From Campylobacteraceae bacterium (GTDB taxonomy: Bacteria > Campylobacterota > Campylobacteria > Campylobacterales > Campylobacteraceae), in contig CAADYZ010000015.1 in the NCBI GenBank assembly GCA_900753405.1, positions 6,712 through 70,711 of the forward strand: a stretch of DNA of 64,000 nucleotides, given 5' to 3'. Shown here piece by piece: positions 18,001 through 22,827 of the stretch. The position numbers were made by a program. The stretch's first letter is position 1. The number at the start of each line of letters is the position of its first letter.

Positions 18001-21000
18001 GCAAATATGCTCCAAGCGGCGGGCTTCTCACGCGTGATTACAATGGACCTTCACGCAGGGCAGATCCAAGGTTTTTTTGACATTCCAGTGGATAACCTCT
18101 ACGGGACGATCTCTTTCATAAACCACCTAAAAACCCTCAACCTCCCAAACCCAGTCATCGCAAGTCCTGATGTCGGTGGCGTTGCGCGCGCAAGGAGCGT
18201 AGCAAAACGACTCGGCGTGGATCTTGTCATTGTCGATAAACGCCGCGAGCGGGCGAATGAAAGCGAGATTATGAATGTCATCGGCGATGTGAATGGCAAG
18301 GATGTAATTTTAATTGACGATATGATCGACACGGGCGGCACGCTTGTCAAAGCAACGGAGGTCTTTAAGAAAAACGGCGCAACAAGCGTCATCGCCTTTT
18401 GCACGCACGCGGTGCTAAGCGGACAGGCTTACGAGCGGCTCAAAACTGGGGCGATCGACCGCCTTTTTGTCACCGACTCGATCCCGTTGAAAGAAAAACT
18501 TCCGTGTATCACCGTCCTTAGCGTGGCGGAGGTTTTTGGCGAGGTGATTAGACGAATTTACCACGATGAAAGCGTGTTTAGCCTCTTTAACAACTAATTT
18601 TTAGGCGTAAAATGCAGTTTAAAGTGCGGTTTTTTGAGGATTTTAAGGAAAAGTCTGCACTTTTGCACGCCGCTTCTGAAAACGAGGCAAAGGAGCTTTT
18701 TGCAAAACGCCACCCAAACGCCACGCTAAAAAGCCTCGCCTTAAAACAAACTGCGTTCAAACTCTCACGCGTTAAGACGAAGGATTTGGCTCTTAGTTTA
18801 AACCAACTTGGGTTGATGTTAAAAGCAGGGATCAGCTTGGAAAACGGGTTAAACGAGCTAATTTCATCCTCGCAAAACAAGGCTGTCAAGGCGCTTTTTC
18901 AGACGCTTTTACAAGGAATTTGGAAGGGGCAGAGTTTGGCTGCTAGTTTCAAAAACGCGGGCTACAAAACCAGCGTGACTGCCTTTGTGGAGGTCGGTGA
19001 AAAGGGCGGCGACTTGGCTGCTGCGTTTTTAAAACTTAGCCGTGTTTTGGAAGAGGAATGCGCGTTGAAAGAGAGGTTTTACACCGCGCTTCGCTACCCG
19101 CTTGGACTGCTTTTGAGCTTGGTGGCGGCGTTTGTGGTGGTGATGCGGTTTGTGGTGGGTGAGTTTAAGGTTTTGTTCGACTCTTTTAACGCGCAGTTGC
19201 CGCTAGCGACTAGGATTTTGCTTGCGGTGGAGGAGTTTTTCAGCCGTTTTGGCGTGGTTTTGGCGGTGGCAGTTTGCGTGGGCGTGGCGTTGGCGTGGGT
19301 TTTTTACGCAAAAAATTTGCGTTTCAAATTCGTTTTGGACAACATTTTTTTGAAAATTCCGCTGTTAAAAGAACTGGTAAAAGAGGCGAATTTAAGCCGC
19401 TTTTTTCTTGTTTGTGGCGAGTTGGTAGGCAGCGGCGTTTTGCTTGAAGAAGCACTTGACACCGCGCAAAACGCTCTATCAAACGAGGCGTTGCGGCAAC
19501 GGGCAGGCGAGTTTAAAGAGGCGGTTTTAAGCGGCGAGAGTCTGAGCGCGGGGCTGCAAAAAAGTCGTCTTGCAAGCGGCGTAACGCTCGCACTCATCAA
19601 CGCTGGTGAGAAAAGCGGCGAGCTAGGCGGGATGTTTTTGAAATCAGCCGAGTTTTACAAAGAGCGTCTTGCGCGCTTGACGCAAAACCTCTCTTCGGCG
19701 ATCGAGCCGATTTTTTTGATTTTGCTTGGGTTGTTTGTGTTGGTTTTGGGGCTTGGGATTTTCCTGCCGATGTGGGAACTTGGCGGGGCGTTGAATTAGG
19801 TGAGTGATGAGTAAAGTTGTGGATTTTGAGAGTTTTTTGCAAACGCTTAGCCCCAAGTCGCGGCGGAGTTTTTTTGAGCCAAAAAAGGTTGGTTTTTACG
19901 CACTTAGCGAGGTTGAAGCAGAGCTTGAAAAACTCGGCGTGAAGGCGGAGAGTTTTTTTGACTTTGAGCTGCCGTTTTACCTTGTTGAAGCGGAGCAAAA
20001 AAGCCTTTTGACGACAAGTGAGTTGTTTAACTCGGGGCGAATTTACATCCAAAACGCAAGTAGTTTTTTGTGCGCAAATCTGCTTGACGCAAACGAGCGT
20101 TTGACGCTTGAAATGTGTGCCGCGCCGGGCGGAAAGTCGATCATCTTGGCGCAAAAAACGCAGGATTTAGCGGTGATGGAGAAAGACCGCGAGCGGTTTT
20201 TTAAACTGAAAGCAAACTTAAAAAAGTATGGTTGCGGCTGGGTAAAAACCTTTTGCAAAGACGCCAGAAGTGTCGCTCACACCTGCGCGCAGAGGTTTGA
20301 GCGAGTCTTGCTTGACGCGCCCTGCTCGGCTTATTCGCACTTTAACGAGAACTTTCGGGCGCTAAAAACTTCGCAGCTAAAAGAGTTGTCGCGGCTGCAA
20401 AAAGGACTTTTAAACGCCGCCTTGACAAGCCTAAAAAGCGGCGGAGAGGTGCTTTACTCGACTTGCACTTTTTTTGAAGAAGAGAACGAAGAGGTCGTCA
20501 AAAACGCGCTGAATTCGAAATTTGGGGTAGAAGTTTTGCCGCTGAATCTGCCTCAAACGCCGCTTTTGCAAACTAGCGCTAGCGAGTTTGGGACGCGTGT
20601 TTTGCCAAACGAGGTTTTCGAAGGCTTTTTCATCTGCAAGCTCAAAAAACTTTAACCCAAAAGTCTAAAAACAGCCTTGCAAGCCCAAAAACTTCAATCT
20701 TTGAGACTCAAACAACTTGACGCCACGCCAGAGTGCAAATGTCAAAACTGAATTTGAAACTCTGCGAATTTGCGAATTAAATTCGGTTTTTGCAAAATTG
20801 CAAATGTTAAAATCAAATTTGGTTTTGACAAATTCGTCATTTGAAATTTTGACTTTCTAATTTTGGATTTAAATCAAAAACTGGGAAAAAAATTGTAAAA
20901 AAATGCTTCACCTACACTTTTACGCTAGCAAAAGTGCCTAAATTTTCAAAGCAACGCTTTGAAAATTTGCTGCCGTCACTCGCAAAATAAAAAAAATGTA

Positions 21001-22827
21001 ACTGCTAAAACCAAATTTGGTTTTAAAAAATTTTGAAATTCAAATTTGCTTTTGACAATTTTAAGATTTTACGCCTAAACGCCAAGGTGTAGGTTTAAAT
21101 ATTTTTTCAACGCAAAACTTTGTTTTGCTAAATTGTAACTTTGAGTAAGCGGAAATTTTCGCATATTTAATGCGAGAATATTAAAATAATCGTAAAAATC
21201 AAATTTGGTTTTGACATTTTGTGTTTTGTTTTTTTGTGAGTGACGGCAGCAAATTTTCAAAGCGTTGCTTTGAAAATTTAGGCACTTTTGCTAGCGTAAA
21301 AGTGTAGGTGAAGCATTGCTTTTACAATTTTCATCCTAGTTTTCAGCTCAAACACAAAACTGGAAAGTCAAAATTAACGCTGCAAATTTGCCGACCGATG
21401 TGAGTTTTAAGCCTCTGCCTTAAACTTTGCTTAACTGCAAGTTGAATTCGCGCAAAAACTCAGCCGCCGCCGCGCTTTGATTTTGCGTCAAAAACAGGGC
21501 AAACTCCGCTCCGCCCTCGCCCCAGTTTTGACTAAAATCAAATTCGAATTTCGCAAAATGATGCGCAACTTTTGCCACCAACGCAAACGGAACAAAACAC
21601 CTAAACTCCTCGCGCGGCACGAATTCGACCGCCCCGCCCTCGCCCACGCAACGAGCGATAACCTCGTTTGCCGCCGCCGAGTAAACCCGAACAAGTCCGC
21701 CAACGCCGAGTTTGACGCCGCCAAAATACCGCACCACCGCCACCGCCGCATCAACAAACTCGCCGCCTCTAAGCGCGTTTAACACGCTCACGCCGCTGCT
21801 GCCCTTTGGCTCGCCGTCGTCACTGCTGTTTTCCACCACTTGCAAAAACTCGTTTAGGTGGCGGGTCGCCCAGACGATGTGCGCGGCTTTTGGGTGGGCT
21901 TGCCACAACTCTTCACGCCGTTTTGCGAGCTGTTTTGCCTCAAAGATGTGTGCGATGAATTTCGACTTTTTGACCTCGATTTGCGCGCAAAACTCGCCCT
22001 TAACCTGCTTCAAGCCAACCCCTTTTTCGCCTCAAATTCAGCCTTGCAAAACCGCCTCGCAAAACACTCTTCGCACTTTGGACGCACCGCCTTACAGGTG
22101 TAACGCCCAAAAAGCACAAAGGCTTGGTGAAGCTCGTTTAGGCGGTCTTTAAAAAGCCGTGTGAGCTCCGCTTCGCACTCTTTCGGCATTTTGGCAAAAC
22201 TCAGTCCGAGCCTGTGACTCACCCTAAAAACATGCGTATCCACCGCCATCAAATTCGCCCCACACCACTCGATCAGCACGACATTTGCCGTCTTTTGCCC
22301 AACGCCTGCTAAGCTCTGCAACGCTTGCTGGTCAAGCGGGATTTGCCCGCCGAAATTCTCGCACACACTTTGCGCCATTTTTTGGAGATTTTCAGCCTTG
22401 TTGTTGAAAAACGAACAGCTTGAAATCAGCTCTTTGAGATGTGTCAGTTTTGCTTTGCTTAGCGCCTCAGCCGTTGGATAAGCCTCAAAAAGTCGCGGCG
22501 TGATGAGATTTACCCGTTTGTCGGTGCATTGAGCTGAGAGCATCACTGCGACTAGCAGCTCAAACTCGTTTGTAAAAACCAGCTCGGTTTTTGGCTTGTT
22601 GAAGTGTTGCAAAAAAAGCTGCTTCAACTCCTCAACTTCGCTCTTTTTTGCGCGGCTCTTTTTTGAGGCGGCTTTTGGTTTTTGGACTTGACTAGACTGC
22701 ATTTTGCCTCTTTTTAAAGATTTTTGGATATTATAGCCTGTTAAATTCGAATTTGACTTAATTGTATTGTGAAAAAAATTGTCATTAAGTTTAAATTTAA
22801 CAAAACGCATTATAATTTTCGGACTAA

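What the first reader, a model, noticed from the sequence alone, without database searches (positions are those of the whole stretch)
20849..21372. Family of conserved promoter-plus-double-hairpin modules (putative sRNA genes) with compensatory stem changes
The architecture ...TTGACTTTC...GGA(T/A)AAAATTGTAAAAAATG-N3-5-TTCACCTACACTTTTGC-loop-GCAAAAGTGCCTAAATTT-hairpin2 recurs at 20849-20981 (+), 21238-21372 (-, about 90 nt identical to copy A), 27565-27690 (+) and partially at 42014-42054. Hairpin 1 keeps a perfect 9-bp stem while the loop differs in every copy (gctag, gtca, aaac). Hairpin 2 differs in stem sequence but remains paired (CAAAGC/GCTTTG versus CAAGGC/GCCTTG). Covariation of this kind is the signature of a structured RNA. 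A conserved TGnTAAAAAAT extended -10-like box sits immediately upstream of the conserved start. No conserved ORF is present.
Basis: seen in the sequence. Interest (0 to 1): 0.65.

Follow-up and report, generated by a model that had tools for sequence, protein, structure and literature searches.

The report
Dispersed hairpin repeat used as prophage attachment site
The four "sRNA gene" modules are real copies of a species-specific intergenic repeat present at 24 or more loci, whose two-hairpin core is well conserved; the 11-base linker between the hairpins is where a temperate phage integrates, and nothing shows that the modules are stand-alone RNA genes.

Summary
Four copies (A 20847-20985 +, B 21238-21375 -, C 27563-27700 +, truncated D 41955-42053 +) share TTCACCTA-hairpin 1-CCTAAATTT-hairpin 2.

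The family has at least 24 loci in one uncultured Campylobacter-like gut species. It was not found in GTDB representative genomes, Rfam, phage, plasmid or viral collections. Both hairpins are kept (97% of cells paired, four pairs changed on both sides).

The gene-like parts are weak:
- no canonical promoter, although the neighbouring tRNA promoter is a perfect TTGACA-17-TATAAT
- no U-tract terminator
- A and B are deleted in one strain

Copies are mosaics: three alternative upstream modules, hairpin-1 variants and hairpin-2 types reassort freely. They sit in arrays with a second repeat (R), separated by a very abundant 26-bp palindrome (P). This resembles Neisseria NIME arrays.

The decisive result is that related prophages sit at three different copies. 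One has a 570-aa tyrosine integrase. All three join exactly after TGCCTAAATTT, the linker between the hairpins. For copy C, the empty site and both prophage junctions were recovered.

Best reading: a host mosaic repeat whose core serves as a multi-copy phage attachment and recombination site. It may be co-transcribed. A family of sibling sRNAs remains possible (about 0.2).

The parts
20847..20985 (+). M copy A: type-i upstream module (20847-20890), A-rich box (20891-20908), core and hairpin 2, then about 17 nt of downstream module
   Evidence: (86.9 bits)
20915..20936 (+). Hairpin 1 of A: CACTTTTAC-GCTA-GCAAAAGTG, 7 bp plus an A.C mismatch plus 1 bp. The mismatch is an A-T pair in strains L002/4/5/6.
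20935..20945 (+). TGCCTAAATTT linker of A, identical to the documented phage att core
20940..20968 (+). Hairpin 2 of A: AAATTTTCAAAGC-AAC-GCTTTGAAAATTT, a perfect 13-bp palindrome. The loop is flipped to GTT in some strains.
21238..21375 (-). M copy B, inverted relative to A: hairpin 1 at 21283-21304, linker at 21274-21284, hairpin 2 at 21251-21279. About 80 nt are identical to A. B starts 45 nt after the stop codon of the Impact_N gene.
21066..21087 (-). Orphan remnant of a downstream module (CCTTGGCGTTTAGGCGTAAAAT) between A and B
27563..27700 (+). M copy C: type-i upstream module, box, hairpin 1 at 27631-27652 (perfect 9 bp, loop GTCA), hairpin 2 at 27656-27681 (12 bp, CAAGGC/GCCTTG)
27651..27661 (+). 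TGCCTAAATTT: documented attB core. Homology with the prophage-bearing strain stops at 27661 (attL in L005). The same 11 nt reappear next to the integrase gene (attR in L115).
41955..42053 (+). Copy D: type-iii upstream module, box, hairpin 1 (42023-42044) and linker (42043-42053). Homology ends at the att core and there is no hairpin 2, as in an attL-like scar.
20805..20830 (.). P palindrome (TGTYAAAAYCAAATTTGRTTTTRRCA) bounding module A on the left. Other bounding copies: 21003-21028, 21032-21057, 21191-21216, 27308-27333, 27534-27559, 27718-27743, 27941-27966, 41877-41902, 41914-41939.
27345..27537 (+). R element, copy 1: a second repeat family that alternates with M in the arrays
27775..27945 (+). 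R element, copy 2

Best explanation
The modules ('M elements') are units of a species-specific family of mosaic intergenic repeats. They are not dedicated sRNA genes.

The invariant part is box, TTCACCTA, hairpin 1, TGCCTAAATTT, hairpin 2. M units lie in intergenic arrays together with a second repeat (R). The units are separated by a very abundant 26-bp palindrome (P).

Shown:
- The 11-nt linker between the two hairpins is the attachment core (attB) for temperate phages. One of them carries a 570-aa tyrosine integrase. Integration occurred at three different M copies.
- The repeat arrays undergo rearrangement, deletion and block exchange.

Inferred:
- The family is maintained and reshuffled by recombination at and around the core, either homologous (gene conversion) or site-specific through the integrase.
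- Because most copies point the same way as the gene upstream, they are probably transcribed as 3' UTR sequence, where the hairpins would fold. Any RNA-level effect (3'-end protection, partial termination) would be secondary.
For: Copy number and range:
- Four copies in the window.
- 19 more at other loci of the same species (same species by 97-98.5% DNA identity).
- One further locus in L121.
- None in GTDB representative genomes, in 80 loci from related Campylobacterota, or in viral, plasmid and phage collections.
- No Rfam match.

Mosaic structure:
- Homology between copies breaks at discrete points: -11, -19, -63 and -102 upstream; +38, +61 and about +115 downstream.
- Identical hairpin-1 centres occur with different upstream modules and different hairpin-2 types.
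- R occurs next to M in either orientation.

Attachment site:
- attB ...GCAAAAG TGCCTAAATTT CAAGGC (window)
- attL ...GCAAAAG TGCCTAAATTT TTATTAAAAAAAGC (L005)
- attR ...ATGAAATT TGCCTAAATTT CAAGGC, 38 nt from a PF00589 integrase gene (L115).
- The same junction is seen at two other loci (L105/L106 against the empty site L094; L121).

Dynamics:
- A and B are deleted in L111.
- A chromosomal rearrangement has its junction in a P palindrome next to copy C.
- Clustered SNPs and hairpin loop flips occur between strains.

Gene-like features are lacking:
- No sigma-70 promoter or terminator call at the modules, whereas the tRNA-Gln promoter is TTGACA-17-TATAAT.

Context:
- All copies are intergenic. 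15 of 21 point the same way as the upstream gene, and many lie between convergent genes.
Against: - The hairpins are kept better than neutral repeats would be: 97.1% of cells paired and a covariation score of 0.115 against 0.062 in shuffles (0 of 500 reach it).
- G.U-type wobbles favour the module strand, about 6 events against 2. This hints at RNA-level selection but is not significant.
- The upstream module's own hairpin is poorly kept (judged by eye).
- An A-rich box ending in AAT sits 4-5 nt before CACC in every copy, whatever lies upstream. It could be an atypical promoter.
- A host has no reason to conserve a phage attB, so use as an att site does not explain why the core is conserved.
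- No transposase or other spreading mechanism was identified.
- The 17 copies found by pattern were ascertained with an exact pattern covering part of hairpin 1. That inflates the apparent invariance of those positions.
Confidence: 0.6

Rival explanations
1. Family of sibling sRNA genes. Each copy is transcribed from the A-rich box. The RNA is about 60 nt: a short 5' tail (UCACCU, identical to the 3' end of 16S rRNA), hairpin 1, a CCUAAA linker, and hairpin 2 as the 3' structure. Phages target these genes as they target tRNA genes.
For: - Conserved hairpins with changes on both sides.
- The box is retained before every copy despite three unrelated upstream modules.
- The upstream hairpin is poorly conserved while the core is.
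- Wobble pairs are mostly on the module strand.
- No conserved ORF.
- Tyrosine integrases often use RNA genes as attB (established knowledge).
Against: - The box is not a canonical -10 or extended -10, and B lacks the -7 T in the best register. The tRNA promoter nearby is canonical.
- Hairpin 2 has no U-tract after it.
- 24 or more mosaic copies in one species, with none at related loci in other genera.
- A and B are deleted in a natural strain.
- The phages do not restore the displaced hairpin 2.
- No Rfam match.
Confidence: 0.2
2. REP/BIME-type elements spread by a REP-associated tyrosine transposase (RAYT) or another single-strand transposase that recognises hairpin 1 and its flanking CCTA motifs.
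For: - Hairpin 1 is a short imperfect extragenic palindrome with conserved flanks (CCTA on both sides).
- The copies form mosaic clusters with units in alternating orientation.
- REP and BIME features as described in PMC2817692.
Against: - There is no GT[AG]G head 5' of the palindrome. GTAG occurs only 3' of hairpin 1 on the opposite strand.
- The hairpin is AT-rich.
- No Y1 transposase was seen among the genes annotated around the copies.
- The copy number documented (24 or more) is below the usual figure of more than 100.
Confidence: 0.1
3. 3'-end RNA elements (terminators or mRNA stabilisers) selected downstream of genes. The repeat nature would then be incidental.
For: - 15 of 21 copies point the same way as the upstream gene.
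- About half lie between convergent genes, with one copy facing each gene (A and B; L102; L096).
Against: - No U-tract follows either hairpin, and the terminator scan is negative.
- Six copies are in the opposite orientation.
- Distances from the stop codon vary from 45 to 300 nt.
- A and B can be lost.
Confidence: 0.1

Closest known systems
Neisseria intergenic mosaic elements (NIMEs: RS units flanked by dRS3 repeats)
   Same: - Intergenic arrays a few hundred to about 2000 bp long.
- The arrays are built of 30-170-bp repeat units separated by a short, very abundant repeat containing an inverted repeat.
- A member of the array is the integration target of a prophage.
- The arrays coincide with rearrangement breakpoints (PMC3898611; here).
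   Different: - No sequence similarity (dRS3 is ATTCCC-N8-GGGAAT).
- Here the phage targets the linker inside the long unit (M), not the short flanking repeat (P).
- The recombinase here is a tyrosine integrase of a tailed phage (P22-type portal). In Neisseria it is the recombinase of a filamentous phage (the recombinase type is from my own knowledge).
- The host is a member of the Campylobacterota.
REP / BIME elements of gamma-proteobacteria
   Same: - Extragenic imperfect palindromes combined with other motifs into mosaics.
- Frequent at 3' ends of genes and between cistrons.
- Species-specific (PMC2817692).
   Different: - No GTAG/GTGG head.
- AT-rich.
- No RAYT found.
- In abundance and in its position between cistrons, the P palindrome resembles a REP more than M does.
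Phage attB sites inside tRNA, tmRNA or sRNA genes
   Same: - A tyrosine integrase crosses over within a short identity block next to hairpin-forming sequence.
- The target is conserved.
   Different: - The identity block is only 11 nt.
- The phage does not carry a replacement for the displaced 3' half (hairpin 2).
- The target is present at many loci, and at least three of them are used.
Sibling sRNA families (for example Qrr1-5, LhrC1-5)
   Same: - Several paralogous copies with a conserved structured body and divergent upstream regions.
   Different: - 24 or more copies.
- Mosaic flanks.
- No recognisable promoter or terminator.
- Restricted to one species.
- Copies are dispensable.
Pneumococcal BOX elements and MITEs (RUP, Correia)
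   Same: - Modular non-coding intergenic repeats that form stable hairpins and can be co-transcribed.
   Different: - A single M unit has no terminal inverted repeats and no target-site duplication.
- The A-B pair forms a 529-nt foldback, but it also lacks a duplication.

Membership tests
Stand-alone sRNA gene | Own promoter immediately upstream | tested here: inconclusive
   An A-rich box is conserved before all copies. It is not reported by the sigma-70 scan, has no -35 element, and its TG spacing varies. The tRNA promoter in the same window is canonical.
Stand-alone sRNA gene | Intrinsic terminator (stem followed by a U-tract) | tested here: not met
   Hairpin 2 is followed by C or G and then mixed sequence, and its stem is followed by AAAAUUU. 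No terminator call.
Stand-alone sRNA gene | Conserved secondary structure with covariation | tested here: met
   97.1% of cells paired; four pairs with changes on both sides; covariation score exceeds all 500 shuffles and all slid controls. RNAalifold finds both hairpins. Caveats: the copies are paralogues, the alignment was fitted to the model, and DNA-level palindrome maintenance is possible.
Stand-alone sRNA gene | Detectable discrete transcript | not testable with these tools
   No expression data are available.
Stand-alone sRNA gene | Membership of a described RNA family | tested here: not met
   Rfam 15 at gathering threshold and at E up to 10: only chance-level hits.
Phage attachment site (attB) | Occupied and empty versions of the same locus, with a short identical core at both prophage ends | tested here: met
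   Locus C: attB (window, L001-4), attL (L005) and attR (L115) share TGCCTAAATTT. Two more occupied loci show the same junction, one with its empty counterpart L094.
Phage attachment site (attB) | Site-specific recombinase gene next to one junction | tested here: met
   A 570-aa PF00589 Phage_integrase gene starts 38 nt from attR (L115:11235-12947).
NIME-like mosaic array | Longer repeat units separated by a short abundant repeat containing an inverted repeat, in intergenic arrays | tested here: met
   P-R-P-M-P-R-P at 27308-27966. M copies are spaced about 390-460 nt apart in L096, L099 and L101.
NIME-like mosaic array | Sequence homology to dRS3 or RS elements | tested here: not met
   The P consensus TGTYAAAAYCAAATTTGRTTTTRRCA is unrelated to ATTCCC-N8-GGGAAT. 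This is an analogy only.
REP/RAYT | GT[AG]G head 5' of an imperfect palindrome | tested here: not met
   Hairpin 1 is flanked by CCTA on both sides. GTAG occurs only 3' of the hairpin on the opposite strand.
REP/RAYT | Cognate RAYT gene in the genome | not testable with these tools
   No whole genome is available. None is present among the annotated neighbours.
MITE | Terminal inverted repeats and a target-site duplication | tested here: not met
   A single unit has no terminal inverted repeats. No duplication is seen at the A-B foldback or at the deletion junction.

The most novel reading that the evidence does not exclude
The M core (hairpin 1, TGCCTAAATTT, hairpin 2) may act as an attC-like recombination site.

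A phage-type tyrosine integrase could excise the segment between two directly repeated M cores as a circle and insert it at another M copy. The intergenic M-P-R-P-M arrays would then grow and reshuffle as non-coding cassettes, an integron- or CIME-like system in Campylobacterota.

The evidence is compatible with this:
- tandem M copies spaced 390-460 nt apart
- free reassortment of hairpin-1 and hairpin-2 types across the linker
- three independent integrations at the linker

It does not demonstrate it.
Probability: 0.15. Interest if true: 0.7.

Novelty: new member of a known kind. Interest (0 to 1): 0.4.

Why it matters
- It corrects a tempting call. Conserved hairpins with compensatory changes do not by themselves mark sRNA genes when the sequence is a multi-copy palindromic repeat.
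- It documents, for an uncultured gut Campylobacter-like species, a repeat architecture (P, M, R) analogous to Neisseria NIMEs. To my knowledge this has not been described in this phylum, and the literature search found nothing on these motifs.
- It identifies a multi-copy attB for a tyrosine-integrase phage. This explains variable prophage position, assembly breaks and rearrangements in these genomes. It also gives a defined substrate (an 11-nt core between two hairpins) for studying target choice.

Tried and rejected
- Rfam at both thresholds: nothing.
- Exact-motif scan of GTDB genomes: none. Orthologous loci from 80 Campylobacterota genomes: no model hit.
- Viral contigs: three patterns, none found. 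Plasmid and phage BLAST: none.
- Type I toxin or small-ORF reading: ORFs on either strand are not conserved in frame or sequence.
- Sigma-54 promoter on the opposite strand (GGCAC...GC): wrong spacing (by inspection).
- TTGACTTTC as a -35 element: about 40 nt from the box.
- A conserved hairpin in the type-i upstream module: many mismatches across copies (by eye).
- Terminal inverted repeats and target duplication: absent.
- I first took the ORPK01 copies for a second species. Searches show they belong to the same species.
- Attempts to recover locus D from other strains failed. Contigs break at the repeat, and the 41-aa ORF is not on record.
- Literature search for the motifs found nothing relevant.
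- The first covariance model (R1) was built with two spurious outer pairs through my own error. It was replaced by R2.
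Full report
**1. The observation**

The 13-mer CACCTACACTTTT occurs exactly four times in the window, at 20909 (+), 21310 (-), 27625 (+) and 42017 (+). Alignment and the repeat finder (family D18 and inverted pairs I1-I4, I9) confirm three full modules:
- A at 20847-20985 (+)
- B at 21238-21375 (-)
- C at 27563-27700 (+)

D (41955-42053) shares only the core.

A covariance model built from the family scores A and B at 87 bits, C at 77 and D at 47. 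It finds no further copy in the 64 kb. Both hairpins fold as described.

- Hairpin 1 has an A.C mismatch in A and B.
- A and B share the same loop.
- The contiguous identity between A and B is about 80 nt.
- The 'extended -10' is an A-rich box, TTG(T)AAAA(NN)AAT, with variable TG spacing.
- TTGACTTTC is about 40 nt from that box.

No ORF is conserved.

**2. Organism and range**

The window is a chromosome segment of an uncultured Campylobacter-like bacterium. It carries NifS/NifU, MqnE-like, GalU and a type IV pilus/competence gene, and has 47% G+C.

The same species is present in several gut metagenome assemblies and MAGs at 98-100% identity. It is absent from the GTDB representative genomes: the best homologue of the neighbouring Impact_N protein is 52% identical, and the motif is not found there.

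A scan of metagenome contigs found 17 more copies in the assembly ORPK01. The model added two. ORPK01 belongs to the same species: L092 against L114 is 98% identical, L105 against L094 is 97.3%, and L114 against the window is 98.5% over 11 kb. These are therefore other loci of one genome type.

With the copy in L121, at least 24 distinct loci are documented. Nothing was found in Rfam, in 80 loci of other Campylobacterota, in viral contigs, or in plasmids and phages. The literature search found no mention of the motifs.

**3. Structure conservation**

On the model-based alignment of 26 distinct sequences:
- 97.1% of cells form standard pairs.
- Four pairs carry changes on both sides.
- The covariation score is 0.115 against 0.062 in shuffles (0 of 500 reach it).
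- Sliding the partner columns drops pairing to 54% or less.

| Pair | Types seen |
|---|---|
| Hairpin 1, pair 8 | G-C 20, A-U 4, G.U 1, A.C 1 |
| Hairpin 2, third pair from the loop | A-U 16, G-C 9 |
| Hairpin 2, another position | U-A to G-C, once |

Hairpin 2 also shows symmetric loss of a base pair. RNAalifold predicts the same two hairpins independently.

Caveats:
- The sequences are paralogues.
- The alignment is fitted to the model.
- The 17 copies found by pattern were ascertained with an exact pattern that covers part of hairpin 1.
- The A-U clade of hairpin 1 probably reflects a single event.

Wobble pairs fall mainly on the module strand (about 6 events against 2 A.C). This leans towards an RNA on that strand but is not significant.

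DNA-level processes are also evident:
- Hairpin loops are flipped between strains (AAC to GTT, TT to AA).
- SNPs in copy A cluster like a conversion tract.
- A whole hairpin in the neighbouring R element is swapped as a block.

**4. Gene-like features**

The sigma-70 and terminator scans report nothing at the box or at hairpin 2. Hairpin 2 is a perfect A/T-flanked palindrome with no U-tract after it.

The tRNA-Gln gene in the same window has a textbook TTGACA-17-TATAAT promoter at 30124-30152. This organism therefore uses canonical promoters.

The box is nevertheless present before every copy, whatever lies upstream. The hairpin in the type-i upstream module is poorly kept. An atypical promoter cannot be excluded.

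**5. Mosaic architecture**

Homology between copies breaks at discrete positions: -11, -19, -63, -102 and about -310 upstream; +38, +61, about +115 and +270 to +390 downstream.

There are three unrelated upstream modules, several downstream modules and five hairpin-2 types. Identical hairpin-1 centres occur with different partners on both sides. For example, GCGAACGC occurs with module ii and hairpin type T1, and with module iii and type T2. GCGTCAGC occurs with T1, T2 and T3.

M units alternate with a 170-nt repeat R, in either orientation. Units are separated by a 26-bp palindrome P, TGTYAAAAYCAAATTTGRTTTTRRCA.

P has 34-42 sites in the window where 0.3 are expected. Its density is 0.5-0.9 per kb in this species and 0.03 or less per kb in relatives.

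All M copies are intergenic. 15 of 21 point the same way as the upstream gene (one-sided binomial p of about 0.04, and the copies are not independent). About half lie between convergent genes.

**6. The decisive finding: a prophage attachment site**

In strain GCA_037345415.1, homology with the window stops at 27661, exactly after ...GCAAAAGTGCCTAAATTT of copy C. It is followed by phage DNA with arm-type direct repeats and capsid and portal genes.

The other end lies on a second contig of the same assembly: galU, P, R, P, the downstream module, hairpin 2, TGCCTAAATTT, a phage arm, and a 570-aa PF00589 integrase gene that starts 38 nt away.

attB, attL and attR share only the 11 nt TGCCTAAATTT, which is the linker between hairpin 1 and hairpin 2. 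The phage carries neither hairpin. M is therefore a host repeat and is not made by the phage.

Related prophages (86-91% identical in the neighbouring protein) join the same position at two other copies:
- One has a type-ii upstream module (L105/L106). Its empty counterpart is L094.
- One has a type-iii upstream module, next to fumarate reductase/succinate dehydrogenase genes (L121).

Copy D loses homology at the same point (42053) and looks like an attL-type scar.

**7. Other dynamics**

- In one strain (L111), window positions 20883-21355 are missing. This removes both A and B, with the junction at a short direct repeat. A and B are therefore dispensable.
- In another strain (L114), the chromosome is rearranged with the junction inside a P palindrome next to copy C.
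- Short-read assemblies break at locus D.

**8. Interpretation**

The best-supported reading (0.6) is a species-specific mosaic repeat, analogous to Neisseria NIMEs. In NIMEs, 30-160-bp RS units are flanked by the 20-bp dRS3 repeat, they form intergenic arrays of 200-2700 bp, and one component is a prophage target (PMC3898611).

Here the phage uses the linker inside the long unit, and the recombinase is a tyrosine integrase. REP/BIME membership fails on the GTAG head (PMC2817692). MITE membership fails on terminal repeats and duplications.

What is shown: the repeat nature, the mosaicism, hairpin conservation, the att function at three loci, and dispensability of A and B.

What is inferred: that recombination at the core maintains and reshuffles the family, and that the copies are co-transcribed as 3' UTR sequence.

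What remains unexplained: why the core, including the single-stranded TTCACCTA, is so well conserved. This keeps the sibling-sRNA reading alive (0.2). An integrase-driven cassette system is the most novel reading not excluded (0.15).

**9. Verdict**

The finding is real and non-random, but it is not shown to be a set of sRNA genes. It is a new member of a known kind (dispersed intergenic mosaic repeats that serve as phage integration targets), in a lineage where none had been described. Interest is moderate (0.4).

Noticed in passing
window, 34-42 sites, e.g. 3079-3104, 9231-9256, 20805-20830, 25097-25122, 30033-30058, 31023-31048, 52673-52698, 55229-55254: A 26-bp palindrome P (TGTYAAAAYCAAATTTGRTTTTRRCA) occurs about once per 1.5-2 kb, where 0.3 sites are expected in the window. 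Most sites are intergenic, including 40-bp spacers inside operons. Several perfect copies lie inside long ORFs. P is specific to this species (0.5-0.9 per kb against 0.03 or less in relatives) and lies at a chromosomal rearrangement junction. Its density recalls DNA uptake sequences, dRS3 or REP elements. It contains the RAATTY motif that C. jejuni uses for methylation-dependent uptake (from my own knowledge). This may be more interesting than the assigned finding.
   Followed up: partly
window 27345-27537 and 27775-27945; 15 more copies in L091-L102: R element: a 170-nt repeat with a G/C-rich hairpin, C-rich single-stranded stretches (CTCCC..ATCCCCC..CCCCCGAC), and a terminator-like hairpin CGTAAAAAC-loop-GTTTTTACG followed by a T-rich run. 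It looks more sRNA-like than M. Two sequence subtypes occur, with recombinants between them.
   Followed up: partly
L005:14835-21197 and L115:10826-14226 (strain GCA_037345415.1); L105, L106, L121: A temperate phage family (P22-type portal, Phage_capsid_3, 570-aa tyrosine integrase) with arm-type direct repeats (3 x ATGGTTTTGACGGACGCG, 3 x GGCGTAAGGCGTTGCGGTG). It integrates at three different M copies and is absent from IMG/VR by exact pattern.
   Followed up: yes
L107-L110, about 480 nt after the 516-aa phage gene: The same phage end is truncated at a P-like half site (AAAACCGAATTTG) and fused directly to a chromosomal Pribosyltran/LUD operon, with no M core. This looks like a prophage remnant produced by recombination at P.
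   Followed up: no
window 42140-42265 (+) and 42405-42686 (-): Downstream of truncated copy D lie a 41-aa very hydrophobic ORF with a good AAGGA ribosome-binding site, and a 93-aa very basic ORF with no Pfam match. They may be remnants of an integrated element.
   Followed up: no
window 11364-17489 (+): A giant ORF (more than 2000 aa; 2300-2660 aa in other strains) built from 15-nt (pentapeptide) repeats. Its C-terminus resembles that of an autotransporter from another locus (L097). Its length varies between strains.
   Followed up: no
window 26153-26635 (+): The nitroreductase gene is 160 aa here but 121, 142, 223 or 242 aa in other strains of the same species. It appears to be a polymorphic frameshift, pseudogene or phase-variable locus.
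   Followed up: no
window 59163-59226 and 59559-59622; whole array 59204-59766: Another duplicated unit of about 60 nt (GACTTGCGAGYCGTCTCGACTCTGTGTCCTGTGAGAAATGTGTAATC...) is fused to P palindromes, within a 560-bp intergenic array holding five P sites.
   Followed up: no
window 30124-30152: A textbook sigma-70 promoter (TTGACA-17-TATAAT) lies upstream of tRNA-Gln/tRNA-Met. Unlike what is reported for C. jejuni, a -35 element is used here.
   Followed up: partly
L111:17457-17742 (window equivalent 20883-21355 missing): A natural deletion removes both M copies A and B. It leaves a short foldback: TTTTGACTTTCT, 24 nt, AGAAAGTCAAAA.
   Followed up: yes
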